From: a virus
Lineage: Duplodnaviria > Heunggongvirae > Uroviricota > Caudoviricetes
Strand: one strand, 5' to 3'
Length of the DNA: 64,000 nucleotides
Virus record (IMG/VR): IMGVR_UViG_3300028584_001240
Position numbers and translations under genes: made by a program. Below the pieces are notes generated by a model. That model ran no database searches. It saw nothing but the letters and a program-made list of their open reading frames with translations, and was not told the DNA's origin. Shown in pieces: positions 2,122 to 62,600 of the stretch; positions within the stretch are counted from its first letter, which is position 1, and every line of letters begins with the position of its first letter.

Positions 2122-2148
2122 AAAAAACCCGCACTAGGCGGGCTTTTT
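2122..2148. terminator. Rho-independent terminator after tyrS (bidirectional shape)
   Basis: aaaaaaCCCGCactagGCGGGcttttt. Stem 2128-2132/2138-2142, flanked by an A-run and a T-run. The tyrS stop codon lies in the loop. Confidence 0.85.
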
Positions 2149-3393: not shown

Positions 3394-3581
3394 AATATTT
3401 TTCTCCACGAAAATTTAATTGTGTTTGTGTATAGCTGATTTTTTAGTTAAATAGATAATGCCTCTAAAAGAAGCATAGAGCGGAGAAGTTCAATATCGAA
3501 CGGTGAAAGACTTTTGAAAGTGAAATGTTTTTGAAGCGTTCATGATGTAGTTCCTTTGATTGCGTTTCGTTTAATATGGCT

Positions 3582-16771: not shown

Positions 16772-18052
<1,281 letters not shown>

Positions 18053-18855: not shown

Positions 18856-18873
18856 TTTTTGTGTTTCCTATCA

Positions 18874-19632: not shown

Positions 19633-20385
19633 TTAACAAACCTCCATCGCTAATACAGGGTAATAAGACATCAATAATTCTGGCGACCAATTAGAAACTT
19701 CATCAACAGGTGTATTATAGAGTTCACTCAATGCAGTAGTTATATAGAGAAAACATTTATTATAGAATAAATCGGCAAACTTTGAAACGTAATCATTAAT
19801 ATATTTTTCATTATTTTCTGTTCTTTTCATGAACTTAAAATTACCAACTTCCGAAGAAAATACAAATTCAGGATTAATATAGAATTTATTTTTTTCAAAG
19901 ATAAATCTAGGTCTTTGTTCTATTTCAATAGTTTCAAAGGCTGTTTCAAGGTTTGCATAAATTTGTGGATCGATAACACCATGCAATTTTGATGAATACT
20001 GAATAGTGCTGGAATCTTGTAGTATATTGACAGCTTTGATAAATTTCAAATGATTGCTTTGTCTAATCATAGCGTCCACAAATAATGAAAATGAATTAAA
20101 CCCATCAACACAATATTCCTTTACAAACAAATTATAGATGCCTAAATATTTTTGGTCACCAATCACTATATTAATTGAATGTCTTTTAGCCTCATTTGTC
20201 GATTCAAGAATAAAACTGAAAATAATGCTTCCTGATGCAGTGAGGACACGAACATCAGGAAAAAGATTATGACTGCCAACATTACCATTAGTCCGTTTCT
20301 GGAAAAAGACAGGTTCGAGCACATTATCTTTAAAAAATGGCTTTATTTTGGCTATAATTGAATCACATAAATCATTTATATTCAT
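19633..20385 (-). CDS. Tail-motif paralogue family member (sub-cluster A, 3 of 3)
   Basis: 250 aa. Ends ..LMSYYPVLAMEVC. Contains PRFIFEKNKFYINPEF. Confidence 0.8.
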   Translation of the reverse strand: MNINDLCDSIIAKIKPFFKDNVLEPVFFQKRTNGNVGSHNLFPDVRVLTASGSIIFSFILESTNEAKRHSINIVIGDQKYLGIYNLFVKEYCVDGFNSFSLFVDAMIRQSNHLKFIKAVNILQDSSTIQYSSKLHGVIDPQIYANLETAFETIEIEQRPRFIFEKNKFYINPEFVFSSEVGNFKFMKRTENNEKYINDYVSKFADLFYNKCFLYITTALSELYNTPVDEVSNWSPELLMSYYPVLAMEVC

Positions 20386-26876: not shown

Positions 26877-27317
26877 ATGAACACGCAGGATCAATCAATA
26901 TTAACTACAATTTATAGAATATTTATAGGACTCACAATCTGTGGGCCAATCATGGCATTATTCATTTCACTGCCCTTTGGACTACCAGTGGTGTTAACAA
27001 TCGCTCTAATAGCCAACTTAATAATGTCTATGAAATATTACAACGAACTGGTTCGCTCATCTTTTGATAGAGAGATTAGAAAATTACTTCATTTTTTTAC
27101 GACATCAATTACTATTTTGTTTCTAACATCCATACCTGCTTTAATAACTTCATACACTGTTGTAAATGACATGACTGCGACGATGGATATGATTGCTGTG
27201 GTTATTAAATTTATAGGATCTATCGTTGCATGGGGATATTACTTAGTTGTTTTGATAAAGGAATATCATCAATTTGAAAAAATGAAAAATAAAAAAAATA
27301 ATATATTTATAGCTTGA
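26877..27317 (+). CDS. 4-TM membrane protein, tandem paralogue 1 of 3
   Basis: 146 aa. Four hydrophobic segments. Conserved (T/N)IY near the N-terminus, a KYY..(I/H)(R/K)K(L/I)L loop, and W(G/S/A)YY in the last helix. AAGGA SD. Confidence 0.8.
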   Translation: MNTQDQSILTTIYRIFIGLTICGPIMALFISLPFGLPVVLTIALIANLIMSMKYYNELVRSSFDREIRKLLHFFTTSITILFLTSIPALITSYTVVNDMTATMDMIAVVIKFIGSIVAWGYYLVVLIKEYHQFEKMKNKKNNIFIA

Positions 27318-27334
27318 AAACAACAATAATATTT

Positions 27335-27359
27335 AAAAGGCACTTAGGTGTCTTTTTTT
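27335..27359 (+). terminator. Rho-independent terminator
   Basis: aaAAGGCACttagGTGTCTTttttt (one G-U pair). Confidence 0.75.
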
Positions 27360-27370
27360 AGTTCATTCGA

Positions 27371-27398
27371 TTGTAAAAGAACAACTACATATTATAAT
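27371..27398 (+). promoter_or_regulatory. Putative sigma70 promoter of membrane-protein gene 2
   Basis: TTGTAA, 16 nt, then TATAAT. Confidence 0.5.
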
Positions 27399-27428
27399 AA
27401 TATAAACAACAATCAAAGATGTGTCCTC

Positions 27429-27875
27429 ATGGATGACAACAACCGATATTCAACATTGAATAATATTTATAAAGCGTTAATTTTTATGACGTTTGCAGTG
27501 CCTACACTTTGTTTTTACATTGCGTTTCAATCGTATATACTTGCCATTCTTTTACTACTTTTATTCATTATTGTTCCACATGCCTTAATTTGGACAAAAT
27601 ATTATAAGCTTACTGACCATGACACTTTTCAATTGCATATTAAAAAAATATTGATGGCTTTTTGGATATCCGGTGGGATACTTTTAGTTTCTTTGTTGCC
27701 AATGTTAGTTTTTGTTGGAGCCGATGGTGGTCAACCCACTGGCGGCGAATATCTAATGATGTTCTTAGCAGCAATTGGATGTTTCATAGGGCCAGCGTTT
27801 TCTTGGTCTTATTATGGCTACAAATTGATGAAAAATTATAGTTTACTTGATAAACAAATAAGAGGTGAGATATGA
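27429..27875 (+). CDS. 4-TM membrane protein, tandem paralogue 2 of 3
   Basis: The track's GTG 27348 lies inside the upstream terminator and before the promoter. ATG 27429 (MDDNNRYSTLNNIYKALIF..) aligns with the paralogue N-termini. Confidence 0.75.
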   Translation: MDDNNRYSTLNNIYKALIFMTFAVPTLCFYIAFQSYILAILLLLLFIIVPHALIWTKYYKLTDHDTFQLHIKKILMAFWISGGILLVSLLPMLVFVGADGGQPTGGEYLMMFLAAIGCFIGPAFSWSYYGYKLMKNYSLLDKQIRGEI

Positions 27876-28300
27876 ATAGTTTTAACGAATACGAGTGTTT
27901 AAAGAACATTTATTCAAGAATGATCATGCTCACAGCTATATCACCAATAGCTGTCTTATTTTTTGGCCCATTTTTGTTTTTATATATATTGATACCTAAT
28001 CTTTATATTTATGTTAAATATTATAAAAGACATGGCAATACAAAATTTGAAGGGCATATCAGAAAAATACTTAAAACATGTTTAATTTCGTTAAGTGTTC
28101 TATTTATATTTTTGTTACCACTTATATCAATGGCCTTCATAGACTTTACAAAAATATATCAAGGAACAGCTTATATGATTTTAATGGTAGCAATGATTTG
28201 TGTTGGTGTTGGTCTTTTGATTTCGTGGGCTTATTATTTTCATAACTTAATGAAGCTATCAAAAACTATAGATGAAAATGACTTTAACAAACTTATTTAA
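27872..28300 (+). CDS. 4-TM membrane protein, tandem paralogue 3 of 3
   Basis: 142 aa. ATGA overlap with paralogue 2. GAGGTG SD. Contains NIYSRMIM.., KYYKRHG.. and WAYYFHNLMK. Confidence 0.8.
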   Translation: MNSFNEYECLKNIYSRMIMLTAISPIAVLFFGPFLFLYILIPNLYIYVKYYKRHGNTKFEGHIRKILKTCLISLSVLFIFLLPLISMAFIDFTKIYQGTAYMILMVAMICVGVGLLISWAYYFHNLMKLSKTIDENDFNKLI

Positions 28301-38095: not shown

Positions 38096-38149
38096 AACAA
38101 GACCTCAAAAAAATAAACCTTATAGAATTATAAGATTTATGTAATAATG

Positions 38150-38224
38150 TTGAAGAGGAAGGATTTGAACCTCCGACATACCCGCCCAAAATGCAGGCTG
38201 CTCTACCCACTGAGCTACCCTTCA
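38150..38224 (-). tRNA. tRNA with non-canonical anticodon arm; anticodon most simply UUU (Lys); CCA not encoded
   Basis: Manual fold of the minus strand: acceptor TGAAGGG/CTCTTCA (U1-A72, one G-U); D arm GCTC-AGTGGGTA-GAGC; anticodon arm GCCTGC-ATTTTGG-GCGGGT (6 bp, or 5 bp with a 9-nt loop); variable ATGTC; T arm GGAGG-TTCAAAT-CCTTC; discriminator A. Confidence 0.7.
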
Positions 38225-38272
38225 AACTCTTTATAAAACAATAGAGCAACTAGGTTACTCTATTTTTTAAAT

Positions 38273-38349
38273 TGGTCGGAGTGGCAGGATTTGAACCTGC
38301 GGCATCTTGCTCCCAAAGCAAGCGGTCTACCGGGCTGACCTACACTCCG
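38273..38349 (-). tRNA. tRNA-Pro (anticodon UGG), CCA encoded
   Basis: Manual cloverleaf: CGGAGTG-TA-GGTC-AGCCCGGTA-GACC-G-CTTGC-TTTGGGA-GCAAG-ATGCC-GCAGG-TTCAAAT-CCTGC-CACTCCG-A-CCA. All stems are Watson-Crick. C1-G72 and G37 are typical of tRNA-Pro. Confidence 0.9.
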
Positions 38350-43885: not shown

Positions 43886-44614
43886 ATGAATGAGAAATAC
43901 ACAATAGTCCAGAATGATAGTTTAGAATTTGATGAATTGTTCGATGTCAGTCAAATTAATATGAGTTATTATTTTTCAAATTGGGTTAACAATGAGATTA
44001 AAATGACAAAAATTATTAAAAAACTTTATCTGGAAGGTATAAAAGTTGATATGATTAATATGTATGCAAATCCAGACAAGGGAGATCACCGTGAATATTG
44101 TGATGTTGAGAATCGTGATGATAGAATATATTACAATTTTATTAGTCAATTATTAAAACAATCTCATGCTAGAAATGACTTCAATTATTATGAACATTTA
44201 CCATTATCTGATCGAAAAGGTTATATGGATATTTGCTATCTCTTCAATAGGCCAAAAATAGAAATAAGATATCACACTAAAACAATTAGCACTATTTTTA
44301 CATTTACTGAGACTGGTTTGGTTATTGTATACAAAATTAACAATAATGACAGTAATAAAATGATGATAGAAATAAAAATCAATGAGAATAATGAAATATT
44401 ATCAACAATTGTTCACTTTAATGGAAAGATTTATAAAGAACCAGAAAAGATAAAATTAAGTCATAAACAGCTAGATTATCTTATTGCTTTATGTCATTAT
44501 GGCATGATAGAAGAGAAAGATTTTAATGTAGAGCCATATATTGATAAGGTGTTAGCAGAAGATTATAAAGATGTAATTAATTATTTTAAAGTAAAAGAGA
44601 TGACTTACATATGA
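43886..44614 (+). CDS. Tail-motif paralogue family member (sub-cluster E, 1 of 2)
   Basis: 242 aa. Ends ..VINYFKVKEMTYI. Shares SNKMM(I/L).I.IN, (K/Q)QLDYLI and NARNDF/HARSHL blocks with the next gene. Confidence 0.8.
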   Translation: MNEKYTIVQNDSLEFDELFDVSQINMSYYFSNWVNNEIKMTKIIKKLYLEGIKVDMINMYANPDKGDHREYCDVENRDDRIYYNFISQLLKQSHARNDFNYYEHLPLSDRKGYMDICYLFNRPKIEIRYHTKTISTIFTFTETGLVIVYKINNNDSNKMMIEIKINENNEILSTIVHFNGKIYKEPEKIKLSHKQLDYLIALCHYGMIEEKDFNVEPYIDKVLAEDYKDVINYFKVKEMTYI

Positions 44615-45405
44615 CAAATCAATATATCGTAAAAATACTCAGCTCAAAACATGTCTTTGATGAGACATCTAATAAGGGTGTTGAGAATAAATATTTAACT
44701 GTAAAAACAGAAAATGAAGACTTTAAAAAGTTATTGGATATTAGTGCTATAAACAGCAGATATTATTTTTCAGCGTGCTTAAATATTAAAGATAAAGTTA
44801 CTCAACATCTAAAAGAGACGAATAAAAAATTCGCAGACGTTAGACCTTATCACGCTCCTGATAAAGATGATTGCACGGAATATACAGATGTAAAAAATCA
44901 GAACTCTACTGTATACATGGATTTTATTGAGAACCTTGTTAAAAATGCACATGCAAGAAGTCATTTAACATTTGTGGACTATATTAAAGACATTCATAAA
45001 AAAGCTGACGTTATTTTTTCTCACTTTTTTGACAATGCTAAGATAAGTATCACCTATTTTACAAAACCTATCATGCTTTGTATGAATTTTGATAAAAATG
45101 GATTGAATATTGTCTATATGCTAAATAGTTGTGACAGCAATAAAATGATGTTAGACATTACTATTAATCACAACACTGAAATTATCTCAACAGAAGTTTA
45201 CTTTAATTTTAATAATACAAGATCAAATGAAACAGATATGATTACTTTAAACCATCAACAATTAGATTACCTTATTGTATTAAGTCATTATGCTGACGGT
45301 GAAGAGATTGATTTTATGGTTGAAAAATATGTTGATGACATTTTAGCTGAGAACTATCAAGATTTACTCGATTACATTAAAGTTAAAGAAATGATGCACA
45401 TCTAA
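44611..45405 (+). CDS. Tail-motif paralogue family member (sub-cluster E, 2 of 2)
   Basis: 264 aa. Ends ..LLDYIKVKEMMHI. ATGA overlap with the previous gene. Confidence 0.8.
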   Translation: MTNQYIVKILSSKHVFDETSNKGVENKYLTVKTENEDFKKLLDISAINSRYYFSACLNIKDKVTQHLKETNKKFADVRPYHAPDKDDCTEYTDVKNQNSTVYMDFIENLVKNAHARSHLTFVDYIKDIHKKADVIFSHFFDNAKISITYFTKPIMLCMNFDKNGLNIVYMLNSCDSNKMMLDITINHNTEIISTEVYFNFNNTRSNETDMITLNHQQLDYLIVLSHYADGEEIDFMVEKYVDDILAENYQDLLDYIKVKEMMHI

Positions 45406-45917: not shown

Positions 45918-45946
45918 TTGACATTTTTTTAATTAAAGATCACAAT
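45918..45946 (+). promoter_or_regulatory. Putative promoter of the thrS leader
   Basis: TTGACA (45918-45923), 17 nt, then CACAAT (45941-45946). Confidence 0.5.
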
Positions 45947-45969: not shown

Positions 45970-46047
45970 ATGAAATTATTTGCAGTAAACACAACGACTA
46001 CAACAACTCAGTTCAATAGCTGGGCTGGTCGATTGTTGCTGTCTTAA
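45970..46047 (+). CDS. Thr-rich leader peptide of thrS (25 codons)
   Basis: GGAG lies 9 nt upstream. ATG AAA TTA TTT GCA GTA AAC ACA ACG ACT ACA ACA ACT CAG .. TAA gives MKLFAVNTTTTTTQFNSWAGRLLLS. Six consecutive Thr codons occupy 45991-46008. Too short for the ORF track. Confidence 0.75.
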   Translation: MKLFAVNTTTTTTQFNSWAGRLLLS

Positions 46048-46093
46048 AATAATCGGAACCACAAAAACCCAGCTAAACGGCTGGGTTTTTTTA
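46017..46093 (+). promoter_or_regulatory. Transcription attenuator: competing antiterminator and terminator helices
   Basis: TAGCTGGG (46017-46024) is the exact reverse complement of CCCAGCTA (46068-46075). The same CCCAGC (46068-46073) pairs with GCTGGG (46080-46085) to form the terminator. CTCAG (46007-46011), directly after the Thr codons, can pair with CTGGG (46020-46024). Confidence 0.7.
46063..46093 (+). terminator. Intrinsic terminator of the thrS attenuator
   Basis: aaaaaCCCAGCtaaacgGCTGGGtttttttt, 55 nt upstream of the thrS ATG. Confidence 0.8.
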
Positions 46094-46148
46094 TGCCTAA
46101 AATAAATGATTAACACAAACACAAACTAAACTATCAAGGGGAAATAAA

Positions 46149-47327
46149 ATGAACGACAAATTAAATGAAGAAAAGAGATACATGAAAGTCGCCAAAGAAA
46201 TGAACTTATTCATGTTGGCTGAAAGTGCAGGTGTTGTTTACTGGAAACCAGAAGGGCTTAAATTGTATGAGAATTTAAAATCTTTTATTCGTAAACACCA
46301 TGAAGACGCTGGTTATCTTGAAGTCAAGAGTCCATCCATTGTGGTGCCTAGCTTATTTGAGCAGTCTGGTCATATGGATAAATACAAAGATAACATGTTC
46401 TTTCTCAATTCATCAGAAGCCAGTAACTACGCTCTCCGTCCTATGAGCTGTCCCAACCATATCCTAATCTATCAATCAGAAAAAAGAAGCTACCGTGAAC
46501 TCCCATTACCAATATTTGAGTTTGGTGAGGTGTTTCGTAATGAAGCGTCTGGTGCATTACAAGTGTTATTCAGACAAAGACAATTCTGTCAGGATGATAG
46601 TCATGTGTTTGTGAATGAAGAAAATCTAATCAGTTCGGTCAATCAATACATACAGATGAGCCAAAAAGCGTATGAAGAACTCGGATTCAAAAAGATTAAA
46701 TACGCCATTGCGTTACGTCCAGAAAAAAGATTTGGTGATGACATCTTATGGGATAAAGCCGAAGAAGCCTTGCGAGAAGCCTGCAGAATGAATAATCTTG
46801 ATTTCGTAGAAAACGAAAATGACGGGGCTTTCTATGGCCCGAAACTAGAACTCCAAGTAGAAGACAAACTCGGCAGATCATGGCAATTAGGTGTGATACA
46901 GCTTGATTATGTTCTTCCAGAACGTTTTGGACTTGAATACATTGATGCCGATAACAAACCTAAGCGTCCTATTATTCTCCACCATGCCGTATTAGGTTCA
47001 CTTGAACGCATGATAGGGATCTTGTTGGAGTCCTTTGGTAAAGACATACCTGACTTCTTACACCCTATGAAATCAGTGGTTATTCCAGTATCCGAAAAAT
47101 CTATGGAGTATGCAAAGGTCGTATTCTCTCATATGGATAAGAAATCATCTAAACTGGATCAAAGTGCTGATTCATTAGGTAAGAAGATTCGATACTGGAA
47201 AGAACGTGGTGTTCCTGAGATCATTGTAGTCGGTGAAGCTGAACAAAGTAAATATGACAATGAAGGTGTGATTAGTTTTGTCGTCAATCTTGGTGCTGTC
47301 AAAGAAGTCAGAGAAATTAAGCCATAA
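46149..47327 (+). CDS. thrS: Threonyl-tRNA synthetase, catalytic plus anticodon-binding domains only (no N-terminal TGS/editing domains)
   Basis: 392 aa. Aligns by eye with E. coli ThrRS from about residue 242 to the end: RPMSCPNH, YRELPLPIFEFGEVFRNEASGAL..FRQRQFCQDDSHVF, GAFYGPKLE, ILHHAVLGSLERMIGILLE. The Zn ligands (Cys, His, His) are conserved. Confidence 0.93.
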   Translation: MNDKLNEEKRYMKVAKEMNLFMLAESAGVVYWKPEGLKLYENLKSFIRKHHEDAGYLEVKSPSIVVPSLFEQSGHMDKYKDNMFFLNSSEASNYALRPMSCPNHILIYQSEKRSYRELPLPIFEFGEVFRNEASGALQVLFRQRQFCQDDSHVFVNEENLISSVNQYIQMSQKAYEELGFKKIKYAIALRPEKRFGDDILWDKAEEALREACRMNNLDFVENENDGAFYGPKLELQVEDKLGRSWQLGVIQLDYVLPERFGLEYIDADNKPKRPIILHHAVLGSLERMIGILLESFGKDIPDFLHPMKSVVIPVSEKSMEYAKVVFSHMDKKSSKLDQSADSLGKKIRYWKERGVPEIIVVGEAEQSKYDNEGVISFVVNLGAVKEVREIKP

Positions 47328-47348: not shown

Positions 47349-47370
47349 AAAGAGGCTTCGGCCTCTTTTT
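47349..47370. terminator. Bidirectional terminator
   Basis: AAAGAGGCttcgGCCTCTTTtt. Confidence 0.85.
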
Positions 47371-48000: not shown

Positions 48001-48669
48001 TCAATAGTAATACATCTTAACAATTTGCTTTTCTGATTTAGTAAGCTTCTCTGTCGTGTCCTTTTTGTCAATAAGTTGTGAATAGTACCTAATAAAAAAT
48101 TCATTGTCAATCATTTTAACGGCATTCTCAAAACTATATTCATTGTTTTTTACAATAATATAAAGTTCTGGAAATTCTTTATACTTTTTAAATTTTAAAA
48201 CGATTTTTTGATAGATATTTCCATGTAACGAATGGTAAACATACACTGGATAGATTTCAATATGATCAAGGTTAGCATACACTGGGTTTTTCTTTTTATT
48301 TATTTCATCGCCTTTATTGATAAGACGAAGATGATTTGTAATCACCTTAAAAAATTTTTTAGCATGATAATTATCAACATTCTCAAAATAGACCTTTCTA
48401 GGCGATTCTTTTTTTGATAATAGATTAGGTTTAATGTCGAAAGAGCACTCATGCTCTGAGTCATGTTGGAAATAAGTCAGATTACCAATAGCATAAAATC
48501 TATCATAACCTGATCTTATTTTCGGTGTGCCATCTGGATTTACCGCTTCCTGAACAATAGTGTAACCAGAAGATATTTGATATCTATAATTAATATTACT
48601 GACGGAATGCTTTAAATAGTAATTAAAGGACGCCATATTGTCAGGTAAATCGAATTTTCCTATATCCAT
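48001..48669 (-). CDS. Tail-motif paralogue family member (sub-cluster B, 3 of 4)
   Basis: 222 aa. Ends ..LTKSEKQIVKMYYY. Confidence 0.8.
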   Translation of the reverse strand: MDIGKFDLPDNMASFNYYLKHSVSNINYRYQISSGYTIVQEAVNPDGTPKIRSGYDRFYAIGNLTYFQHDSEHECSFDIKPNLLSKKESPRKVYFENVDNYHAKKFFKVITNHLRLINKGDEINKKKNPVYANLDHIEIYPVYVYHSLHGNIYQKIVLKFKKYKEFPELYIIVKNNEYSFENAVKMIDNEFFIRYYSQLIDKKDTTEKLTKSEKQIVKMYYY

Positions 48670-48673
48670 AATA

Positions 48674-49375
48674 TTAATAGTAAACCATTTTAATCAACTC
48701 TTGTTCTTTTTTGTTAAAGAATTTGCCACGCTCAATTTTTTCACGATCAACAATACCATTATAATAACGTGTTTGAAATGTTTTTTCCATATCATCAATA
48801 GCGGCTAAAAATTTGTTGTCATCATTTAAAATAACAATTTTATGTTCTGGGTAGCCATTGCTTGCTTTAAATTTAAGGAGAGCACATTTACTAACGATTT
48901 GACTAATACGATCATATCTGTAGAAGCACCTAACCATAAGCGATTTTGAATCAAAATTAATAAGTTCACGTTTTTTATGCAAAAGAGTAGCTTCATTTAA
49001 AAGTTTAAGGTGCCGTTTTAATCTCACCCAAAATTCATCAACATGAAACCTATAAACATAATCAAATTTAATAGGTTTACCTGTATCATCTTTTGAAGTG
49101 AGCAGTGTAAAAGAGACTTCGAAATCAGAATCCCAATTACATTCACGACCATTAACAATACTGGCAACCTGATAAAATTTATCATAATACCGAATATGAC
49201 CACTGCCCCAACCAGAAGTTTCATAGACTCTAATTCTATGACCATCAGTCGTTAAGGGATAACGATGAACATAAATGGAATCATCACCATACTCATATTC
49301 GGCATTTGAAAATTTCGAAGAAAAGTATTTTGCAAGTTCAGTCGCTTTATTAATTTCAGTGGAAGGCATAAACAT
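48674..49375 (-). CDS. Tail-motif paralogue family member (sub-cluster B, 2 of 4)
   Basis: Ends ..FNKKEQELIKMVYY. Start moved from TTG 49414 to ATG 49375 (MFMPSTEINK..). HRYPLTTDGHRI matches CRYPLDKEGNRI of the next gene. Confidence 0.75.
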   Translation of the reverse strand: MFMPSTEINKATELAKYFSSKFSNAEYEYGDDSIYVHRYPLTTDGHRIRVYETSGWGSGHIRYYDKFYQVASIVNGRECNWDSDFEVSFTLLTSKDDTGKPIKFDYVYRFHVDEFWVRLKRHLKLLNEATLLHKKRELINFDSKSLMVRCFYRYDRISQIVSKCALLKFKASNGYPEHKIVILNDDNKFLAAIDDMEKTFQTRYYNGIVDREKIERGKFFNKKEQELIKMVYY

Positions 49376-49410
49376 AATAAGAGAACCTTTTTTTAATTTA
49401 AGTAAGTGTA

Positions 49411-50142
49411 TCAATAATAGGTCATTTTTACAAGTTCTTTTAAACGTTCATCCCATTTTGAAATATCCAATAGAGCATAAACATCATCAAAACTCATATT
49501 AGGATAAGCTTCTTTTATTTTGTCTTTGTAATACAGTTTAAAAAACTCAATGTCCATATTTTTTAACGTATTCTGTGTAGTTAACATATTATCCGTTACA
49601 TAGTAGACTGGAAGGATTTCACTAGATGATTTGTTACTTTTCATAAACTGAACAGCTAGAGTTCTTGAAATTTTTTTATTAAGCTGATCATATTTGAAAT
49701 TAAATTTAATTGAAAAGTCGTTGCAGACAATAAATTGATAATCGTCAGAAATATTTTTTTGATTGAGAAGTGTTAAGTGTTGATTAGTATGTTGCATAAA
49801 CAAATCAATCATTGGTGAAGATAAATCACCAAAACGTTCAGAATAAATATCATCGTATTTAGAAGATAATTCAAAAAAAAGTGAACTTGGTGTGTCACCT
49901 TTACCAACATGAGCAATAGTTTCCGACTTAGCGGCTGTGCCACCATACATTCCATAAGTAAAAGGAGCTTCTTTAAGTGCTTCAATAATCCGATTACCCT
50001 CTTTATCTAATGGATAACGACAGATTCCAATTGGATTAGTACCATACTCGTAGTGTTCATTTGTAAAGTTGTTTACAAAATAATCAAGGAATCCATACAA
50101 GGGAAACTGTTTCTTTTTTTCTTCATCAATGACTTCATTCAT
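49411..50142 (-). CDS. Tail-motif paralogue family member (sub-cluster B, 1 of 4)
   Basis: 243 aa. Ends ..WDERLKELVKMTYY. Confidence 0.8.
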   Translation of the reverse strand: MNEVIDEEKKKQFPLYGFLDYFVNNFTNEHYEYGTNPIGICRYPLDKEGNRIIEALKEAPFTYGMYGGTAAKSETIAHVGKGDTPSSLFFELSSKYDDIYSERFGDLSSPMIDLFMQHTNQHLTLLNQKNISDDYQFIVCNDFSIKFNFKYDQLNKKISRTLAVQFMKSNKSSSEILPVYYVTDNMLTTQNTLKNMDIEFFKLYYKDKIKEAYPNMSFDDVYALLDISKWDERLKELVKMTYY

Positions 50143-50928: not shown

Positions 50929-51489
50929 TTAAATGCAAATCATGCGAATAACTTCACGTTCTTCTGGTGTCATGCTTGCTAAGGGTTTAATCAATTCTTC
51001 TGGAATAGGTTGACCAAAATAGCTAATGTAATAATCTAACACTTTTCTTTCCATTTCTTCAATATTACTGTCATTTACTTCAAAAAGAGACATGTGATAA
51101 TCACCATATTCAAGCTCGTTAAATTCAAAGAGATGAACCTTTTGAATATGCCCAGATAAATTGATAAAATAATAAGCATACTCATTATAACATTCATCAT
51201 ATTTTTCAGGATTGAAAAACTCATCATAATCTTTAATGATATTATATAGCTTGGACTCAAATGAATATTTTTCTTCAAGATAATTTAAAAAATCACTCCA
51301 ATTGTGATGATCTGGGTTAATGCCAAAAGCATGACCTTCATCCAATGTGATGTGATCAACTAGATTGTGTTCATGGACAAGCTTTGGCCGGGTCAATCTA
51401 AAAGATTTTTTAGTAATCCCTTTCGAGATAAGAAAATCTTTGACCTGTTCATAAATTGTGTCATAGGAAAACTCTTTGGTTTCAATCAT
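50929..51489 (-). CDS. Tail-motif paralogue family member (sub-cluster C, 3 of 3)
   Basis: Ends ..MTPEEREVIRMICI. Start moved from GTG 51498 to ATG 51489 (AAGGTG upstream). YSFESKLYNIIKDYDEFFN matches the next gene. Confidence 0.8.
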   Translation of the reverse strand: MIETKEFSYDTIYEQVKDFLISKGITKKSFRLTRPKLVHEHNLVDHITLDEGHAFGINPDHHNWSDFLNYLEEKYSFESKLYNIIKDYDEFFNPEKYDECYNEYAYYFINLSGHIQKVHLFEFNELEYGDYHMSLFEVNDSNIEEMERKVLDYYISYFGQPIPEELIKPLASMTPEEREVIRMICI

Positions 51490-51555
51490 CAATATCACCT
51501 TTAAAATAGATGAATCATTATAGCATTATAATAACAAAAAATCCACACAATCTAT

Positions 51556-52122
51556 CTAAATATGAATCATTTCAAGTAACGATATTTCTTCTTTTGATAA
51601 TTGACTTAATGGTCTTTTTAATTCTTCTGGTGTGTTGGCATTTCCAAAATACTGAAAATAGTAATCGAAAATTCTAGTTTCTAATGAGCGTAAATTAGTG
51701 TCATCAAATTCAAGAAACTTCATATAATCATTGCCCAACTCAATGTCAGTAAAGTCAAATGAATAAACTTTTCTCAGTCTTTGATCCATATCAAAAGCAT
51801 AATGACCATTAACATAATAACAGTCTTTTCTCGGATGCTTATTAAAAAAGTCATCATAAAAACCCAGTGTTTTTTCAAGGCGGCTCTCAAAAGAATAACG
51901 ATGGTCTAAATATTCAGCCAAAGGTTCACAAAAAGGATGGTTCCATTTGATTTTAAAACAATGCCCCATCGAAATAGTTTGATTATCAAAAATAATTTCA
52001 CGAGTCAGAATCTCTGGAATTGCTGCACAGAAGTCTTCCTTTTTGATAGAATTAATCAAACAAAAAGTTTGAAGAGATTCAAAGACAGTCTCATCAGTAA
52101 ACTTATAGGTTTCAATCGTCAT
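51556..52122 (-). CDS. Tail-motif paralogue family member (sub-cluster C, 2 of 3)
   Basis: 188 aa. Ends ..LSKEEISLLEMIHI. Contains YSFESRLEKTLGFYDDFFN. Confidence 0.8.
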   Translation of the reverse strand: MTIETYKFTDETVFESLQTFCLINSIKKEDFCAAIPEILTREIIFDNQTISMGHCFKIKWNHPFCEPLAEYLDHRYSFESRLEKTLGFYDDFFNKHPRKDCYYVNGHYAFDMDQRLRKVYSFDFTDIELGNDYMKFLEFDDTNLRSLETRIFDYYFQYFGNANTPEELKRPLSQLSKEEISLLEMIHI

Positions 52123-55043: not shown

Positions 55044-56918
55044 TCAGACTGCAATGTATTTTGCAACAAATTCAGCTTCGGTCAAGATTTCAATATCAAC
55101 ACCTTTCGCTTTCAAGGCTTGGGCGTCAGCAAGTTTACTACCAGCACTTTCACCGTAAACAAGAATTTGTGTTGTCTTGCTTGCTTTGCTTTGGATCTTC
55201 GCACCTTTCGATGTGAAGAACGCTTCAATCTCTTTACGTGAGTAGCTAACCATTGTACCAGTTACCACCACGTTCTTACCAGAGAATGGACTATCATTGT
55301 CAACAACTGCTTGTGAAGACAATTCAAGATTGAACAAAGGACGCAAGGTATTAATCAATTCAAGTTTTTCTTGAATACCGGCTGGAATGAGAACGCTATT
55401 CACTGGGCCGTAACCTTTCATCTTAATCAACTTACCTTCTTCGACTTCATGCAGTGCGTCGATATTGAAGACTTTAAGCAACTTTTTAGAGTCGCCTTTA
55501 CCAAGACTCGAAATACCGAAGGCTGCAAGGAAACGCCAGTCTTCAATTTGACTTGATTTACTGGTTTCAAGAGCGGCGACCAAGTTAGGGCTTTCACCTT
55601 TACCAAAACCAGCGGTCAAGAAATCCTGCTCTTTCATTGCGTAAATCTTTTCCAAGGTGTCGAAACCTGCTTCAACCAACTTAGCGACTGTTTTACCACC
55701 AAAACCATCGTTGTTAGCCAATGTTGCAAAGAAGTGCAACAAGGTCTGGCTAATTTGTTCCGAGCAACCTGAATGGTTAGGGCAGAAAAGGAAGTGACTT
55801 TCCCATTCAAGCACAGTGTTACAGCAAGGGCAGTTCGTTGGAACTTCGTATTCAGCTTGGGTAATCACTTTTTCAATTTTAGGGATTACTTCACCACTAC
55901 GAATGATTTCAATGACGGCACCTACACCCATTTTGTTCGTGCGAACGTTGTTCATGTGGTGAGCGGTTACGTTACTAATCGTTGCACCAGACACAAGAAC
56001 AGGAGCCACAGCAAGAACCGGCGTGATAGTGCCAGTGCGACCTACTTGAAGTTTAACATCAAGCACAGTAGTCTGTGCAGTTTCACCACGTTCTTTAAAT
56101 GCACACTGCCATTTATTGTGATGGTTGTTGTAGCCCATGTATTCTTTGATTTCTGGAACAATGGATTCAATCACGAAACCGTCAATCAAGTAAGGAATAG
56201 CAGCACGCAAATCGTTGTTGATTTGTACAAGGTTAGCAAGAATGTCATCAGCCGTGCCAACATAAGCCTGCAACGTGGTGTAAGGCACAAAATGAATCGC
56301 ACCGTCATCCAAAGCCTTCTGAGTTTCAGGGCGTGTATCTTCCTGAGACAATACGCTGCTCATCATGTTACGTGGATGTGGGAACATCGAAGCAAGGTTC
56401 TCTGCGAAATAAGTCTTGTCAATCACCAACTCGCCACGACCTTCTGCATTTTCTTTACGAATAACACCTTTATCGTAGATGTAAGTAATGTCGTTACCAC
56501 GAATGCCATCACCACGAGTAGATAGTTTTTCTGTTTCATGGCAACCCGCAAAACCATCAAGTTTGCAAGTAACTTTATACATGGATTTTACATGAAGATC
56601 CTGAGCTACGTCTTCAACACGTTTAAACCATTTAGCCAAGGCTTCGGAAGTGTAGAATTTTTCGGTTGACAGCATAGGGGAAGAGTGAGTAATAGCGTTT
56701 TCGCCAACTTCTTCCAATTCAATTTCATCAAACCATGTTGATTCAGGGAATTTAGCACGAAAATCTTCAACAACAGCGTCATAATTTTCATCGGCAATTG
56801 GATCAAGACCAAACAATGCAGTCTTTGGCAACGATTTACGGTAGCAATCGTTATAATCTTCAAGCAGCTCAATGAAAGCAGCTTCGGTTGTTGGGTATTT
56901 GATGTCATTGATATTCAT
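55044..56918 (-). CDS. ligA: NAD-dependent DNA ligase
   Basis: 624 aa. Adenylation KxDG (TCKLDGFAG), OB fold, four-Cys zinc finger (CPCCNTVL..CPNHSGC), HhH region and a C-terminal BRCT (GKNVVVTGTM..). GGAG SD. Confidence 0.96.
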   Translation of the reverse strand: MNINDIKYPTTEAAFIELLEDYNDCYRKSLPKTALFGLDPIADENYDAVVEDFRAKFPESTWFDEIELEEVGENAITHSSPMLSTEKFYTSEALAKWFKRVEDVAQDLHVKSMYKVTCKLDGFAGCHETEKLSTRGDGIRGNDITYIYDKGVIRKENAEGRGELVIDKTYFAENLASMFPHPRNMMSSVLSQEDTRPETQKALDDGAIHFVPYTTLQAYVGTADDILANLVQINNDLRAAIPYLIDGFVIESIVPEIKEYMGYNNHHNKWQCAFKERGETAQTTVLDVKLQVGRTGTITPVLAVAPVLVSGATISNVTAHHMNNVRTNKMGVGAVIEIIRSGEVIPKIEKVITQAEYEVPTNCPCCNTVLEWESHFLFCPNHSGCSEQISQTLLHFFATLANNDGFGGKTVAKLVEAGFDTLEKIYAMKEQDFLTAGFGKGESPNLVAALETSKSSQIEDWRFLAAFGISSLGKGDSKKLLKVFNIDALHEVEEGKLIKMKGYGPVNSVLIPAGIQEKLELINTLRPLFNLELSSQAVVDNDSPFSGKNVVVTGTMVSYSRKEIEAFFTSKGAKIQSKASKTTQILVYGESAGSKLADAQALKAKGVDIEILTEAEFVAKYIAV

Positions 56919-60912: not shown

Positions 60913-61692
60913 TCAAATATAAGACATTCTGATAAGATCAAGCTCTCTTTTATTAAACATCTTATTGGTTCTTAAAAAATGAGTAAAGCTACTACCATAC
61001 AGTTTAGTCACACTTATCTCACATGTTTTAAGAATATCACTCAGTAAAATAGATTCCAGTTCACCTGATTTAAAGACAAAATAATGCACATCATAAATAT
61101 TAACATCGTGTAAAGTGGTGCCATCTTCTTGAAGTATGCTTTTAATGGGGCGTTCAACCACCATAGGCACTGTGCCATTAATACCTTTCTGCAAAGGTCT
61201 GCAGTCTTCCAAGAAATACCAAATTTGGTCGATTTTAAACGTGGTATCATCAATTTCATATGACATGCTTTTTAAATAAAGATCTTTTAACAATCTTTTA
61301 GGTTTTGCAAATTTAATCATCCGTGGCAATCCTGACGGACTAAATGCTATGTTATATGACAAAGAATATTCGCTTCCTTTTTCAAAGGATGCACTAGTTA
61401 TTACAAAATAGGATTGCTCTTTTTTATCAACAACCGCCGAGGCAAGTTCAAGGACACATCCTTTGTTATTACTATATCTATAAATAATTTCATTAACTTC
61501 AAACCCAATATCATTAAAAAATTGATTGAGTTCATCCGTGTCCAAGTCAAACTTCAAGCAATAATTTGAACTTTCAATAATATTCATAACCAGCGGTTTG
61601 TATTCTTCACAGTTTTCTTTATTGATTAGATAATGATCAACATAATGAAATTCAATTCTAGATAAGTAATCTTCTTCAGTAGCTTCTGGCAT
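60913..61692 (-). CDS. Tail-motif paralogue family member (sub-cluster D)
   Basis: 259 aa. Ends ..FNKRELDLIRMSYI. LQKGINGTVPMVVERPIK and VNIYDVHYFVF are shared with 61714.. and 63338... Confidence 0.8.
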   Translation of the reverse strand: MPEATEEDYLSRIEFHYVDHYLINKENCEEYKPLVMNIIESSNYCLKFDLDTDELNQFFNDIGFEVNEIIYRYSNNKGCVLELASAVVDKKEQSYFVITSASFEKGSEYSLSYNIAFSPSGLPRMIKFAKPKRLLKDLYLKSMSYEIDDTTFKIDQIWYFLEDCRPLQKGINGTVPMVVERPIKSILQEDGTTLHDVNIYDVHYFVFKSGELESILLSDILKTCEISVTKLYGSSFTHFLRTNKMFNKRELDLIRMSYI

Positions 61693-61713
61693 ATTTAACT
61701 CCCTAAATCGTAT

Positions 61714-62484
61714 TTAGATATACATCATCTCAATGATATCCCGCTCTCTTTTAGTAAACATTTTAGACATAGTAAGAAAATCAGTGTAATCAGTGCCATA
61801 CATTCTAGCACAACTAAAATCACACTGTGTTAATATATCAATCAGTCGAACTTCCTTAGATTTACCATGTACAGTATAGTAAACATCATAGATATTTACA
61901 TTGTAAAATGACTGAGTGTTTTCAACAATTCTTTTTAATGGATGTTCAATAATCATTGTTATATAGCCATTAATACCTTTTTGTAGCTTTCTGTTATCGT
62001 TAAAACAATAACCAATTTGGTCGATCTTAAGAGTATCACAGTCTATGATATAATGAATAGATTTAAGGGTAAGTCCTTTCAATATTTTGTTTGCTGATTT
62101 AAATGTTCGAGAAACAGCAACACCTTGTAAATTGTAAGACGTAAAATAACTGTGAACGTAACGATCATTCTTAGTAAACTCAACCCATTGCAAGACATAG
62201 CGGTCTTGTACAACCTCACCCTCAATGACAGCAGTTAAATCAATCTCACATCCTTGGTTGTCATTGAATTTCAACGTATTTTCTTCAGATAAAAATCCAG
62301 ATAATGAGAGAAATTCATTCAATTGTGCTCGTTTTAAATCAAATTTTATGATGTAAGAATAATCTTTCAACATCTCAATGAGATTGTCTTTGTATTCATG
62401 CATATTATTTTCGTTAATAATATGTGTCTCCAAATAACGATATTCAATTTTGGCTTCTAACTTGGTAGGTTTTAGTGTATTCAT
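61714..62484 (-). CDS. Tail-motif paralogue family member (sub-cluster D)
   Basis: Ends ..FTKRERDIIEMMYI. Start moved from GTG 62496 to ATG 62484, so that IEYRY aligns with IEFHY of 60913... Confidence 0.8.
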   Translation of the reverse strand: MNTLKPTKLEAKIEYRYLETHIINENNMHEYKDNLIEMLKDYSYIIKFDLKRAQLNEFLSLSGFLSEENTLKFNDNQGCEIDLTAVIEGEVVQDRYVLQWVEFTKNDRYVHSYFTSYNLQGVAVSRTFKSANKILKGLTLKSIHYIIDCDTLKIDQIGYCFNDNRKLQKGINGYITMIIEHPLKRIVENTQSFYNVNIYDVYYTVHGKSKEVRLIDILTQCDFSCARMYGTDYTDFLTMSKMFTKRERDIIEMMYI

Positions 62485-62600
62485 AACAATCGTCACTCAA
62501 TAATTCTTTGTATATTATACTATTTTACTTAATAAATCAATTGAAATGTTGATTTTCTTTTTTAATTTGTTATCCTATGCCTAAGAAAAGGATACTGACC

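What the first reader, a model, noticed from the sequence alone, without database searches (positions are those of the whole stretch)
46149..47327. Phage ThrRS lacks the whole N-terminal TGS and editing module
The 392-aa protein aligns with the catalytic core and anticodon-binding domain of bacterial ThrRS (E. coli residues ~242-642), with the zinc ligands conserved. It begins right at the core. The upstream 55 nt are occupied by the attenuator, so no missed N-terminal exon is possible.

In E. coli the N2 domain hydrolyses mischarged Ser-tRNA-Thr. An editing-less ThrRS should therefore either mistranslate Thr codons as Ser or rely on a trans-acting editor or the host enzyme. The truncation would also remove the parts of the protein used in host-type thrS operator autoregulation. 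That fits with the different (attenuator) control seen here.
Basis: partly seen in the sequence, partly recalled or inferred. Interest (0 to 1): 0.55.

Follow-up and report, generated by a model that had tools for sequence, protein, structure and literature searches.

The report
Editing-less phage ThrRS with Thr attenuator
A huge-phage-like genome encodes a threonyl-tRNA synthetase that naturally lacks its proofreading half, belongs to a large conserved family of such enzymes, and is switched on by a leader peptide of six threonine codons; it is a natural test case for how much proofreading a virus needs.

Summary
ORF 46149-47327 (+) encodes a 392-aa ThrRS with only the class II catalytic core and the anticodon-binding domain (E. 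coli residues ~242-621). The TGS (N1) and N2 editing domains are absent.

The truncation is not an artefact:
- An in-frame TGA lies 14 codons upstream.
- All 120 listed relatives (57-100% identity) are 359-415 aa, and none has Pfam domains beyond core and anticodon domain.
- At least 20 huge-phage contigs in three or more supported clades carry ΔN enzymes, with no N-module within ±10 kb.

Zinc, threonine and ATP ligands are invariant in 119 family members. The AF2 model (pLDDT 92.9) overlays the engineered E. coli ΔN-ThrRS (TM ~0.89).

A Thr-codon leader (5-8 Thr), a terminator and an antiterminator are found upstream in 9 of 10 family loci, with compensatory changes. So the gene most likely makes Thr-tRNAThr on demand. 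No free-standing editor is detectable in the window or in one complete ΔN-carrying huge-phage genome.

How Ser-tRNAThr is handled is untested; host trans-editing, pre-transfer hydrolysis and tolerance are all possible.

Verdict: a new variant of known kinds (natural editing-less ThrRS; pheST-type attenuation), apparently undescribed for phages. Moderate interest.

Family members also sit on contigs of 1.0-1.85 Mb, above the published phage size record.

The parts
45918..45946 (+). Sigma-70-like promoter (TTGACA, 17 nt, CACAAT) for the leader-thrS transcript
   Evidence: Consensus scan, 10 of 12 matches. This is a consensus match only. A divergent promoter-like site at 45881-45853 (-) would serve the opposite-strand ORF.
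45970..46047 (+). Leader ORF MKLFAVNTTTTTTQFNSWAGRLLLS*, with six consecutive Thr codons at 45991-46008
   Evidence: Read from the sequence. Homologous Thr-run leaders (5-8 Thr) lie upstream of thrS in 9 of 10 family loci, 8 of them distinct. It is the only homo-residue leader followed by a terminator in the whole window, both strands.
46018..46024 (+). Region 2 (AGCTGGG). It pairs with region 1 (CUCAGUU, overlapping the last Thr codon), or alternatively with the terminator 5' arm to form the antiterminator
   Evidence: The MFE fold shows the 1:2 hairpin. The duplex with the terminator 5' arm is -13.0 kcal/mol against -6.0 ± 2.0 for shuffles, z -3.5. The same arrangement is seen in all 8 distinct loci.
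46063..46092 (+). Intrinsic terminator of the attenuator (AAAAACCCAGC-loop-GCTGGGTTTTTTT)
   Evidence: 12-bp stem followed by U7 in the MFE fold; leader z-score -4.1. Conserved 38-60 nt before thrS in 8 distinct loci, with compensatory stem changes (CCAGC:GCTGG in L095, CCTAGC:GCTAGG in L096, an unrelated GC-rich stem in L097). The simple terminator scan did not list it.
46093..46148 (+). Unstructured A-rich spacer containing an in-frame TGA (46107-46109) and the Shine-Dalgarno AAGGGG (46136-46141)
   Evidence: Fold energy -0.3 kcal/mol, no better than shuffles. Frame-0 translation shows the stop codons.
46149..47327 (+). thrS(ΔN): a 392-aa threonyl-tRNA synthetase with catalytic core (about res 1-300) and anticodon-binding domain (about res 305-392)
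47349..47368 (+). Intrinsic terminator after thrS, making the unit monocistronic
   Evidence: Terminator scan: 8-bp stem with 4 GC pairs, then a T-rich tail.

Best explanation
The gene encodes a catalytically competent class II ThrRS reduced to its catalytic core and anticodon-binding domain. It is a natural counterpart of the engineered E. coli ΔN-ThrRS. It is carried by a huge phage or phage-like replicon that uses bacterial expression signals.

The gene is a monocistronic unit: promoter, leader ORF, attenuator, thrS, terminator.

Proposed control (inferred):
- When Thr-tRNAThr is scarce, ribosomes stall on the six Thr codons of the leader. This masks region 1, so region 2 (AGCUGGG) pairs with the terminator's 5' arm (CCCAGCU) and transcription reads into thrS.
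- When Thr-tRNAThr is plentiful, the ribosome runs on to the leader stop codon and the terminator forms.
- The phage therefore adds threonine-charging capacity only when charged tRNAThr runs low.

Cis post-transfer editing of Ser-tRNAThr is absent. Fidelity must therefore come from one or more of: zinc-based discrimination, pre-transfer hydrolysis at the synthetic site, trans-editing by the host's full-length ThrRS, or simple tolerance of mistranslation.

Shown here: the domain architecture, its conservation, and the conserved leader, terminator and antiterminator layout.
Inferred: enzymatic activity, the regulatory response, and the route to fidelity.
For: Architecture.

Family-wide truncation:
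- All 120 best relatives are 359-415 aa and have only these two Pfam domains.
- Family N-termini map to E. coli positions 230-245 in 112 of 119 members.

Purifying selection: C334, H385, H511, D383, R363, E365, R375, F379, Q381, Y462, K465, Q479, Q484, A513, S517, R520, H309 and Y313 (E. coli numbering) are invariant in 119 of 119 members.

Structure: the AF2 model has pLDDT 92.9 and pTM 0.90, with a fully folded C-terminal domain. Foldseek gives TMq 0.88-0.92 and rmsd about 2 Å to E. coli ΔN-ThrRS (1evk) and to 1qf6.

Attenuator. The terminator is present in 8 of 8 distinct loci. The antiterminator z-score is -2.7 to -5.7 in 7 of 8. Stem changes are compensatory.

Functional logic: feedback through Thr codons only makes sense if the product raises Thr-tRNAThr.

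Context: in other ΔN clades, phage tRNA-Thr genes abut thrS (L067, L064).

No N-module was found in the window, in the ±10 kb neighbourhoods, or in the complete 636-kb genome LR756504.1.
Against: - No biochemical data exist; activity and Ser misacylation are inferred.
- The anticodon-binding domain is much more diverged than the core. Family mean identity to the window protein is 46% in that domain against 74% in the core, and only 22% to E. coli. From memory of the 1QF6 complex (not verified here), N575 and R609 contact the anticodon; neither is conserved in the family. tRNA recognition may therefore differ.
- Only 64 kb of a genome that may exceed 1 Mb was searched, so a free-standing editor elsewhere is not excluded.
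- One family locus (L098) lacks a Thr leader, and the antiterminator in L097 is only marginal (z -1.7).
- Clade-specific replacements occur at positions that are nearly invariant elsewhere (T482V, R512H, V376Q). Their effect is unknown.
Confidence: 0.75

Rival explanations
1. Split enzyme. As in Crenarchaeota (ThrRS-cat plus free-standing ThrRS-ed), the phage encodes the editing activity as a separate protein elsewhere in its very large genome, so fidelity is maintained by a phage-encoded trans-editor.
For: There is a precedent for short thrS genes with a free-standing editor (PMC7373986). Only 64 kb of a genome that may exceed 1 Mb could be examined.
Against: - No tRNA_SAD, TGS, DTD, YbaK or archaeal ThrRS-ED domain among the 72 window ORFs of at least 110 aa that were scanned.
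- No tblastn hit with E. coli N1+N2 in the window or in the ±10 kb around more than 20 ΔN loci.
- No hit at E ≤ 1 in the complete 636-kb ΔN-carrying phage LR756504.1, although that phage is in a different clade.
- No such domain in the precomputed Pfam annotation of neighbouring genes.
Confidence: 0.12
2. Non-canonical role. The ΔN enzyme may be kept for something other than, or in addition to, accurate charging. One possibility is deliberate Thr-to-Ser statistical mistranslation. Another is binding the host thrS operator without blocking the ribosome, which would displace the host repressor and de-repress host thrS.
For: - Loss of the N-terminus abolishes repression at the E. coli operator, while the mRNA mimic is bound like tRNA (PMC7373986).
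- The ΔN form recurs in several phage clades.
- The window clade has unusual replacements next to the zinc ligands.
Against: - The Thr-codon attenuator ties expression to Thr-tRNAThr supply, which fits a plain charging role.
- All catalytic residues are invariant.
- The host is unknown, and thrS operator control is known mainly from enterobacteria. That last point rests on my own knowledge.
Confidence: 0.07
3. Pseudo-enzyme or decaying gene fragment. The ORF is a remnant of an acquired host thrS that lost its 5' half and is no longer a working synthetase.
For: About 240 N-terminal residues and about 20 C-terminal residues are missing relative to E. coli.
Against: - More than 100 invariant columns are shared across 63 sequences down to 56% identity.
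- All active-site residues are invariant.
- The gene has its own promoter, attenuator, Shine-Dalgarno and terminator.
- The fold is predicted with high confidence.
- The clade has 99-100% bootstrap support and is entirely ΔN.
Confidence: 0.03
4. Not a phage gene. The Mb-scale contigs could be cellular genomes (for example a reduced symbiont), in which case this would be the cell's only, housekeeping ThrRS.
For: Family members lie on contigs of 1.04, 1.33, 1.36, 1.54 and 1.85 Mb. This is above the 735-kb maximum quoted for phages (PMC13359090). The window contains no unambiguous capsid or terminase gene.
Against: - Only about 24% of neighbouring genes (16 of 68) have any Pfam hit, against about 73% typical for the collection according to the tool description.
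- A close relative (85% identity) is an IMG/VR viral contig.
- Window proteins find homologues in jumbo and huge phages, including LR756501-4.
- There is a weak portal-like PHROG hit.
- No ribosomal or other housekeeping operons occur in the 64 kb.
Confidence: 0.05

Closest known systems
Engineered E. coli ΔN-ThrRS (residues 242-642; PDB 1EVK/1EVL)
   Same: Same domain content and boundaries, with window residue 9-11 matching E. coli 242-243. All zinc, threonine and ATP ligands are the same. The predicted structure overlays at TMq about 0.89 and rmsd about 2.0 Å. From established knowledge (Dock-Bregeon et al. 2000, Cell 103:877), the construct charges tRNAThr but also makes Ser-tRNAThr.
   Different: The phage protein is natural, not a laboratory construct. 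It is only about 38-40% identical and about 20 aa shorter at the C-terminus. Its anticodon-binding domain is divergent (22% identity), and it has clade-specific V376Q, C480L, R512H and T482V.
Yeast mitochondrial ThrRS MST1 (PDB 3UGQ/3UH0)
   Same: A natural ThrRS made of core and anticodon domain, with no N2 editing domain. Structural match TMq 0.88-0.90.
   Different: MST1 is 31% identical, organellar, and serves a very small proteome. That it uses pre-transfer editing of Ser-AMP is from my own knowledge (Ling et al. 2012, JBC); whether the phage enzyme does so is unknown.
Crenarchaeal split ThrRS (ThrRS-cat plus free-standing ThrRS-ed; Aeropyrum pernix ThrRS-1, PDB 3A31)
   Same: A shortened thrS lacking the N-terminal editing domain (PMC7373986). 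Structural match TMq 0.82.
   Different: The archaeal system has a dedicated DTD-like trans-editor. No such gene was found in the window, the neighbourhoods, or one complete ΔN-carrying phage genome. The phage enzyme is of bacterial type.
Leader-peptide transcription attenuators (E. coli pheM-pheST; thr operon leader thrL, Rfam RF00506)
   Same: A short ORF with a run of cognate codons, then alternative antiterminator and terminator hairpins, then the regulated gene. As in pheST, the regulated gene is the synthetase for the sensed amino acid (one search shows pheM upstream of pheS).
   Different: It is not a member of the Rfam families (Phe_leader 22.3 bits and Thr_leader 18.5 bits against a gathering score of 55). 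It controls thrS, which in E. coli is controlled by a translational operator and in Bacillus by a T-box (the T-box point is my own knowledge). It sits in a phage genome. No literature precedent was found.
Anabaena duplicated ThrRS T1/T2
   Same: A second, inducible ThrRS with deficient editing works alongside an editing-proficient enzyme that clears Ser-tRNAThr in trans (PMC4787780). This is a plausible model for phage ΔN-ThrRS working with the host ThrRS.
   Different: T2 keeps a crippled N2 domain. It is induced by low zinc through Zur, not by a Thr attenuator, and heterodimerises with T1. Heterodimerisation between phage and host enzymes is untested.
Full-length ThrRS of cultured jumbo phages (Sinorhizobium phage Phosso, Agrobacterium phage Atu_ph07)
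   Same: Phage-encoded ThrRS in genomes of 470-490 kb.
   Different: These retain N1+N2 (Phosso is 640 aa). So loss of editing is lineage-specific, not universal, in phages.

Membership tests
Threonine-tRNA ligase (class IIa; NCBIfam TIGR00418 thrS) | Class II catalytic core scoring above the curated family cut-off | tested here: met
   TIGR00418 scores 392.4 bits against a cutoff of 383.65. Pfam tRNA-synt_2b E 1.3e-43.
Threonine-tRNA ligase (class IIa; NCBIfam TIGR00418 thrS) | Active-site zinc triad (Cys/His/His) plus threonine and ATP ligands | tested here: met
   C101, H152, H278, D150, R130 and R287 are present, and are invariant in 119 of 119 family members. The role of the zinc triad is described in PMC7373986.
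Threonine-tRNA ligase (class IIa; NCBIfam TIGR00418 thrS) | C-terminal HGTP-type anticodon-binding domain | tested here: met
   Pfam HGTP_anticodon E 2.2e-10, covering profile positions 2-65 of 94. AF2 predicts a complete alpha/beta domain at residues 309-390 with pLDDT above 89.
Threonine-tRNA ligase (class IIa; NCBIfam TIGR00418 thrS) | Bacterial-type N-terminal TGS (N1) and N2 editing domains | tested here: not met
   No Pfam TGS or tRNA_SAD hit. Only profile positions 171-535 of 565 are covered. tblastn with the E. coli N-module is negative.
Threonine-tRNA ligase (class IIa; NCBIfam TIGR00418 thrS) | Thr-tRNAThr synthesis activity | not testable with these tools
   Requires aminoacylation assays.
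Split ThrRS-cat / ThrRS-ed system (Crenarchaeota) | Catalytic-only ThrRS accompanied by a free-standing Ser-tRNAThr deacylase gene | tested here: inconclusive
   The catalytic-only enzyme is present. No editor was found in the 64-kb window, in ±10-kb neighbourhoods, or in the complete genome LR756504.1. The rest of this genome could not be read.
Leader-peptide (ribosome-mediated) transcription attenuator | Short leader ORF with a run of regulatory codons | tested here: met
   26-codon ORF with 6 consecutive Thr codons. Relatives have 5-8 Thr.
Leader-peptide (ribosome-mediated) transcription attenuator | Intrinsic terminator between the leader and the regulated gene, with a mutually exclusive antiterminator | tested here: met
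   The terminator is present in 8 of 8 distinct loci. The region 2:3 duplex is significantly better than shuffles in 7 of 8. Stem changes are compensatory.
Leader-peptide (ribosome-mediated) transcription attenuator | Read-through induced by starvation for the cognate charged tRNA | not testable with these tools
   Needs reporter fusions or in vitro transcription-translation.
Rfam Thr_leader (RF00506) / Phe_leader (RF01859) | Covariance-model score at or above the gathering threshold | tested here: not met
   18.5 and 22.3 bits against 55. No hit at gathering threshold.
E. coli-type thrS translational operator, or T-box leader | tRNAThr-mimicking stem-loops next to the Shine-Dalgarno, or a T-box riboswitch, upstream of thrS | tested here: not met
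   The spacer 46093-46148 is unstructured at -0.3 kcal/mol. There is no T-box hit at the Rfam gathering score.

The most novel reading that the evidence does not exclude
Several lineages of huge phages, including replicons that appear to exceed 1 Mb, may run their own editing-free threonine-charging module. In this clade the module would be governed by a phage-encoded sensor of tRNAThr charging. Translation in infected cells would then proceed with relaxed Thr/Ser fidelity, or depend on the host ThrRS purely as a trans-editor. Loss of proofreading would be a selected viral trait rather than decay.
Probability: 0.2. Interest if true: 0.75.

Novelty: new variant of a known kind. Interest (0 to 1): 0.55.

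Why it matters
ThrRS is the textbook class II enzyme that needs post-transfer editing to reject serine. Until now the known natural enzymes without the editing domain come from mitochondria and from Crenarchaeota, where a separate editor exists.

This work finds a large, strongly conserved family of such enzymes in huge phages. That raises a concrete, testable question: how much aminoacylation fidelity does a virus need, and who supplies it?

The family also offers compact, naturally evolved ΔN-ThrRS variants for enzymology. Some carry unusual second-shell residues around the zinc site.

The conserved Thr-codon attenuator shows that a phage can sense tRNA charging and adjust its own synthetase accordingly. 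I found no description of such control for thrS or for any phage aaRS gene. It is easy to test in E. coli with reporter fusions.

Finally, the family marks replicons of 1.0-1.85 Mb that look phage-like. If those are confirmed as phages, they would far exceed the current size record.

Tried and rejected
- Near-identical DNA in deposited phages: none.
- Close relatives in GTDB representative genomes: the scan used near-exact peptide patterns and returned only a 33%-identical Trueperaceae thrS.
- Exact look-up of the window protein's own contig: not on record.
- Eukaryotic giant-virus origin (suggested by aaRS genes, ankyrin repeats, an NAD-ligase, AT-richness and Mb-scale contigs): rejected. Shine-Dalgarno motifs precede 43 of 71 ORFs against a 6% background, TATAAT-like boxes are common, and the TyrRS is bacterial-type with an S4-like C-domain.
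- 'Vibrio phage' and about 45-kb IMG/VR hits as phage ThrRS precedents: rejected. They are full-length host thrS (with infC-rpmI-rplT) at prophage borders.
- Convergent active-site compensation for lost editing: rejected. V376Q, C480L, R512H and T482V are confined to the window's clade.
- Antibiotic-immunity ThrRS (obafluorin-type G463S/L489M): no such signature (the mutant names come from the PDB titles).
- Cognate-codon leaders upstream of the window's TyrRS and SerRS: none.
- Membership in Rfam Thr_leader or Phe_leader: sub-threshold.
- Single versus multiple origin of ΔN: the NJ tree leaves the deep nodes unresolved (bootstrap below 20). A first attempt with Biopython timed out.
- Literature searches for phage ΔN-ThrRS, thrS leader-peptide attenuation or Mb-scale phages found nothing specific. 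The library lacks most subscription journals.
Full report
1. THE OBSERVATION

An ORF runs from 46149 to 47327 on the + strand and encodes 392 aa. It starts at an ATG preceded by AAGGGG at 46136-46141.

Pfam detects only the class II core (tRNA-synt_2b, residues 88-295, E 1.3e-43) and an HGTP anticodon-binding domain (residues 309-367, E 2.2e-10). The NCBIfam thrS equivalog TIGR00418 scores 392.4 bits, just above its 383.65 cut-off, and matches only profile positions 171-535 of 565. Against PDB sequences, residues 9-366 align to residues 242-601 of E. coli ThrRS (1qf6). They also align end-to-end to the engineered 'catalytic domain' constructs of about 400 aa.

An alignment with E. coli ThrRS (fetched) places the zinc ligands at C101, H152 and H278. 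The protein ends near E. coli residue 621, so it is also about 20 aa shorter at the C-terminus.

No N-terminal extension is possible, for three reasons:
- An in-frame TGA lies at 46107-46109.
- The next upstream ORF is on the opposite strand.
- tblastn with E. coli residues 1-241 finds nothing in the window (best E 12) or in the relatives' neighbourhoods (best E 3.8).

One small correction: the 56 nt immediately upstream are an unstructured spacer, and the attenuator lies just beyond it.

2. THE TRUNCATION IS A FAMILY TRAIT, NOT AN ACCIDENT

The 120 best relatives in a database of 5.8 billion proteins (57-100% identity) are all 359-415 aa. Their only informative Pfam domains are these same two.

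In an alignment of 119 of them with E. coli ThrRS, 112 start at E. coli positions 230-245. Every catalytic position examined is invariant: C334, H385, H511, D383, R363, E365, R375, F379, Q381, Y462, K465, Q479, Q484, A513, S517, R520, H309 and Y313. A 63-sequence alignment has more than 100 invariant columns, although identities fall to 56%.

AlphaFold2 run on that alignment gives pLDDT 92.9 and pTM 0.90, with a complete alpha/beta C-terminal domain. Foldseek overlays the model on the engineered E. coli ΔN-ThrRS (1evk) at TMq about 0.89 and rmsd about 2.0 Å. It also matches two natural editing-less enzymes: yeast mitochondrial MST1 (0.88-0.90) and Aeropyrum ThrRS-1 (0.82).

The anticodon-binding domain is much less conserved than the core. 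Within the family, mean identity to the window protein is 46% against 74% for the core; against E. coli it is 22% against 43%.

3. WHAT KIND OF GENOME IS THIS?

The window is 29-37% GC. Besides thrS it encodes a bacterial-type TyrRS (2134-3408), a SerRS (16772-18043), an NAD-dependent DNA ligase (55044-56918), tRNA-Lys and tRNA-Pro. Most other ORFs have no Pfam or PHROG match.

The genome uses bacterial expression signals. Shine-Dalgarno motifs precede 43 of 71 ORFs against a 6% background, and TATAAT-like boxes are frequent. It is therefore not a eukaryotic giant virus.

Several results point to a phage:
- A relative at 85% identity lies on a 437-kb IMG/VR viral contig.
- Other window proteins have homologues in jumbo phages and in the 636-735-kb 'huge phage' genomes LR756501-LR756504.
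- Only about a quarter of the neighbouring genes in related loci have any Pfam hit.

'Phage', or a phage-like extrachromosomal element, is therefore supported.

One caveat remains. Family members are recorded on contigs of 1.04, 1.33, 1.36, 1.54 and 1.85 Mb. A 2026 review still gives 735 kb as the upper limit for phages (PMC13359090).

4. DISTRIBUTION OF THE ΔN ARCHITECTURE

Among 80 IMG/VR loci there is a clean split:
- Contigs of about 45 kb carry 642-aa, E. coli-like thrS at a contig edge. This is host DNA at prophage borders. The 'Vibrio phage' thrS-infC-rpmI-rplT is the same kind of case.
- At least 20 contigs of 40-578 kb, most over 95 kb, carry ORFs of 386-435 aa with no N-module homology within ±10 kb.

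The published 636-kb phage LR756504.1 has a 386-aa ThrRS. It has no match to E. coli N1+N2 anywhere in its complete genome at E ≤ 1. By contrast, the cultured jumbo phages Phosso and Atu_ph07 encode ThrRS that retains the N-terminal module; Phosso's is 640 aa.

An exhaustive HMMER scan of 1.84 billion representatives shows the window's clade as distinct. Identity drops from 56% to about 43% at the next representatives. Beyond that point, ΔN and full-length ThrRSs are intermixed, and by my reading of the table roughly 30 of the top 150 representatives are ΔN.

A bootstrapped NJ tree of the shared core leaves the deep nodes unresolved. It does recover at least three exclusive ΔN clades:
- the window's clade (bootstrap 99-100, 11 taxa);
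- a large huge-phage clade (bootstrap 88);
- L084/L092/L093 (bootstrap 99).

Whether N1+N2 was lost once or several times cannot be decided from this tree.

5. THE ATTENUATOR

Upstream of thrS, in order, lie:
- a sigma-70-like promoter at 45918-45946;
- a 26-codon ORF at 45970-46047, MKLFAVNTTTTTTQFNSWAGRLLLS*;
- a 12-bp hairpin followed by U7 at 46063-46092.

The leader folds with z = -4.1. The fold contains a 1:2 hairpin (CUCAGUU:AGCUGGG, with region 1 overlapping the last Thr codon) and the terminator. Region 2 (46018-46024) is also complementary to the terminator's 5' arm.

The same layout is found upstream of thrS in 9 of 10 family loci, 8 of them distinct in sequence, down to 61% protein identity. 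The leaders carry 5-8 consecutive Thr codons.

In all eight distinct loci, a terminator of -12 to -24 kcal/mol lies 38-60 nt before thrS. A segment starting 8-12 nt after the last Thr codon (4 nt in L097) pairs with the terminator's 5' arm, and this pairing beats shuffled controls with z of -2.7 to -5.7 in seven of the eight.

The stems co-vary. The window has CCCAGC:GCTGGG, L095 has CCAGC:GCTGG, L096 has CCTAGC:GCTAGG, and L097 has an unrelated GC-rich stem with a matching region 2.

This is the only homo-residue leader with a terminator anywhere in the window. The TyrRS and SerRS genes have none.

It is not a member of Rfam Thr_leader or Phe_leader (18.5 and 22.3 bits against 55). No T-box or operator-like structure is present. 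A second terminator at 47349-47368 closes the unit.

6. HOW IT MOST LIKELY WORKS

Shown here:
- a conserved, structurally intact ΔN ThrRS with every catalytic residue preserved;
- a conserved layout of Thr-codon leader, antiterminator and terminator.

Inferred:
- Ribosome stalling at the Thr codons when Thr-tRNAThr is scarce frees region 2 to form the antiterminator, so thrS is transcribed.
- Abundant Thr-tRNAThr lets the terminator form.

This is the logic of E. coli pheM-pheST applied to thrS. It makes sense only if the product raises Thr-tRNAThr, which argues against a pseudo-enzyme. In other ΔN clades the gene sits beside phage tRNA-Thr genes, in keeping with a phage threonine-charging module.

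Post-transfer editing in cis is absent. Three routes to fidelity remain plausible:
- tRNA-independent pre-transfer hydrolysis of Ser-AMP, which persists in ThrRSs whose post-transfer editing has been abolished (PMC5909460);
- trans-editing by the host's full-length ThrRS, as apo-T1 does for the editing-defective T2 in Anabaena (PMC4787780);
- tolerance of some mistranslation, as in Mycoplasma (PMC7373986).

No free-standing editor was found in the window, but most of the genome is unseen.

Loss of the N-terminus also removes the part of ThrRS needed for repression at the E. coli thrS operator (PMC7373986, citing Caillet 2003). This fits the different mode of control seen here.

7. COMPARISON AND NOVELTY

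The protein works like the engineered E. coli ΔN-ThrRS and resembles MST1 and crenarchaeal ThrRS-cat in architecture. It passes the tests for ThrRS membership except for the bacterial N1+N2 module. It cannot be filed as a crenarchaeal-type split system, because no partner editor was found.

The regulatory element works like the classical leader-peptide attenuators but is not a member of the curated Rfam leader families.

I found no paper describing ΔN ThrRS in phages, leader-peptide attenuation of thrS, or attenuation of any phage aaRS gene. The library lacks most subscription journals, so this is absence of evidence only.

I rate it a new variant of known kinds, of moderate interest.

8. UNEXPLAINED

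- The window's clade has invariant or near-invariant replacements at positions that are almost fixed in other ThrRSs. These are V376Q, C480L and R512H; T482V occurs in half the clade, including the window protein. T482 is T in 38 of 38 full-length sequences sampled. Other ΔN clades do not share these changes.
- One family locus (L098) lacks the leader.
- A different ΔN clade (L064/L070) has a Thr-rich upstream peptide, MDGVIINHLKKLVQANPITTETSTTTAKD*, that was not analysed further.

Noticed in passing
Whole window; related loci L003 (JGI Ga0247725_1000001, 1,539,155 bp) and L005 (JGI Ga0310127_000002, 1,042,066 bp); protein clusters P0001, P0063, P0098: Members of this ThrRS family lie on contigs of 1.04, 1.33, 1.36, 1.54 and 1.85 Mb. 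The identical protein P0001 is on the 1.85-Mb contig. Their neighbourhoods are rich in ORFans and carry further aaRS genes (GluRS/GlnRS-type, ArgRS). Published phage genomes reach only 735 kb (PMC13359090). These may be phages or phage-like elements larger than 1 Mb, or else cellular or chimeric contigs.
   Followed up: partly
window 2134-3408 (-), 16772-18043 (-), 38149-38349 (-), 55044-56918 (-): The same 64 kb holds other translation and replication genes: a bacterial-type TyrRS with an S4-like C-domain (its true start is probably the ATG 9 codons after the listed GTG), a SerRS, tRNA-Lys(UUU) and tRNA-Pro(UGG), and an NAD-dependent DNA ligase that is syntenic with thrS in relatives. TyrRS and SerRS have no cognate-codon leader.
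   Followed up: partly
window 18091-20385 (-), 26877-28300 (+), 43886-45405 (+), 48001-50142 (-), 50929-52122 (-), 60913-62496 (-): There are six small families of adjacent, highly diverged tandem paralogues (26-42% identity, mostly about 190-260 aa). None has a Pfam match, and some flank thrS. Several share C-terminal motifs, for example SYYPVL..ER.
   Followed up: partly
L067 9911-9982 and 11243-11330; L064 2464-2697: In other huge-phage clades the ΔN thrS is flanked by phage tRNA-Thr genes. In L067 a tRNA-Thr(GGU) ends 7 nt before the ThrRS match begins and a tRNA-Thr(UGU) follows the gene. L064 has tRNA-Thr(UGU) and (CGU) within a 13-tRNA array.
   Followed up: no
L064 and L070, about 165 nt upstream of thrS: A second ΔN clade (about 40% identical to the window protein) has an upstream small ORF rich in Thr: MDGVIINHLKKLVQANPITTETSTTTAKD* in L064 and ...TTETTTTTASA* in L070. 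This may be an independent Thr-sensing leader. No structure analysis was done.
   Followed up: no
Window ORFs among those in alignment A1 (Pfam Peptidase_S49/NfeD1b_N and Band_7; PHROG 'head maturation protease' and 'portal'): An S49/NfeD-like protease and a Band 7/SPFH protein are both present. This could be an NfeD-stomatin pair rather than a prohead protease. A Band_7 gene also occurs near thrS in L002/L003. The portal-like PHROG hit is weak (E 1.9e-9) and falls in an ORF of 304 aa or less. Which ORFs carry these hits was not determined.
   Followed up: no
L026, L051, L079, L081, L082, L091 (IMG/VR contigs of 8-23 kb): A third ThrRS architecture appears in some 'viral' contigs: enzymes of 584-610 aa that lack only the N1 (TGS) domain and keep N2. 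The N-module homology starts at E. coli residue 35-65.
   Followed up: no
MK672802.1 / MK672805.1 (L011) and many IMG/VR contigs of about 45 kb (e.g. L020-L024, L029-L050): The 'phage' thrS annotations in these records are full-length host genes (thrS-infC-rpmI-rplT) next to integrases or at contig ends. This is host DNA included at prophage borders, not phage-encoded synthetases.
   Followed up: yes
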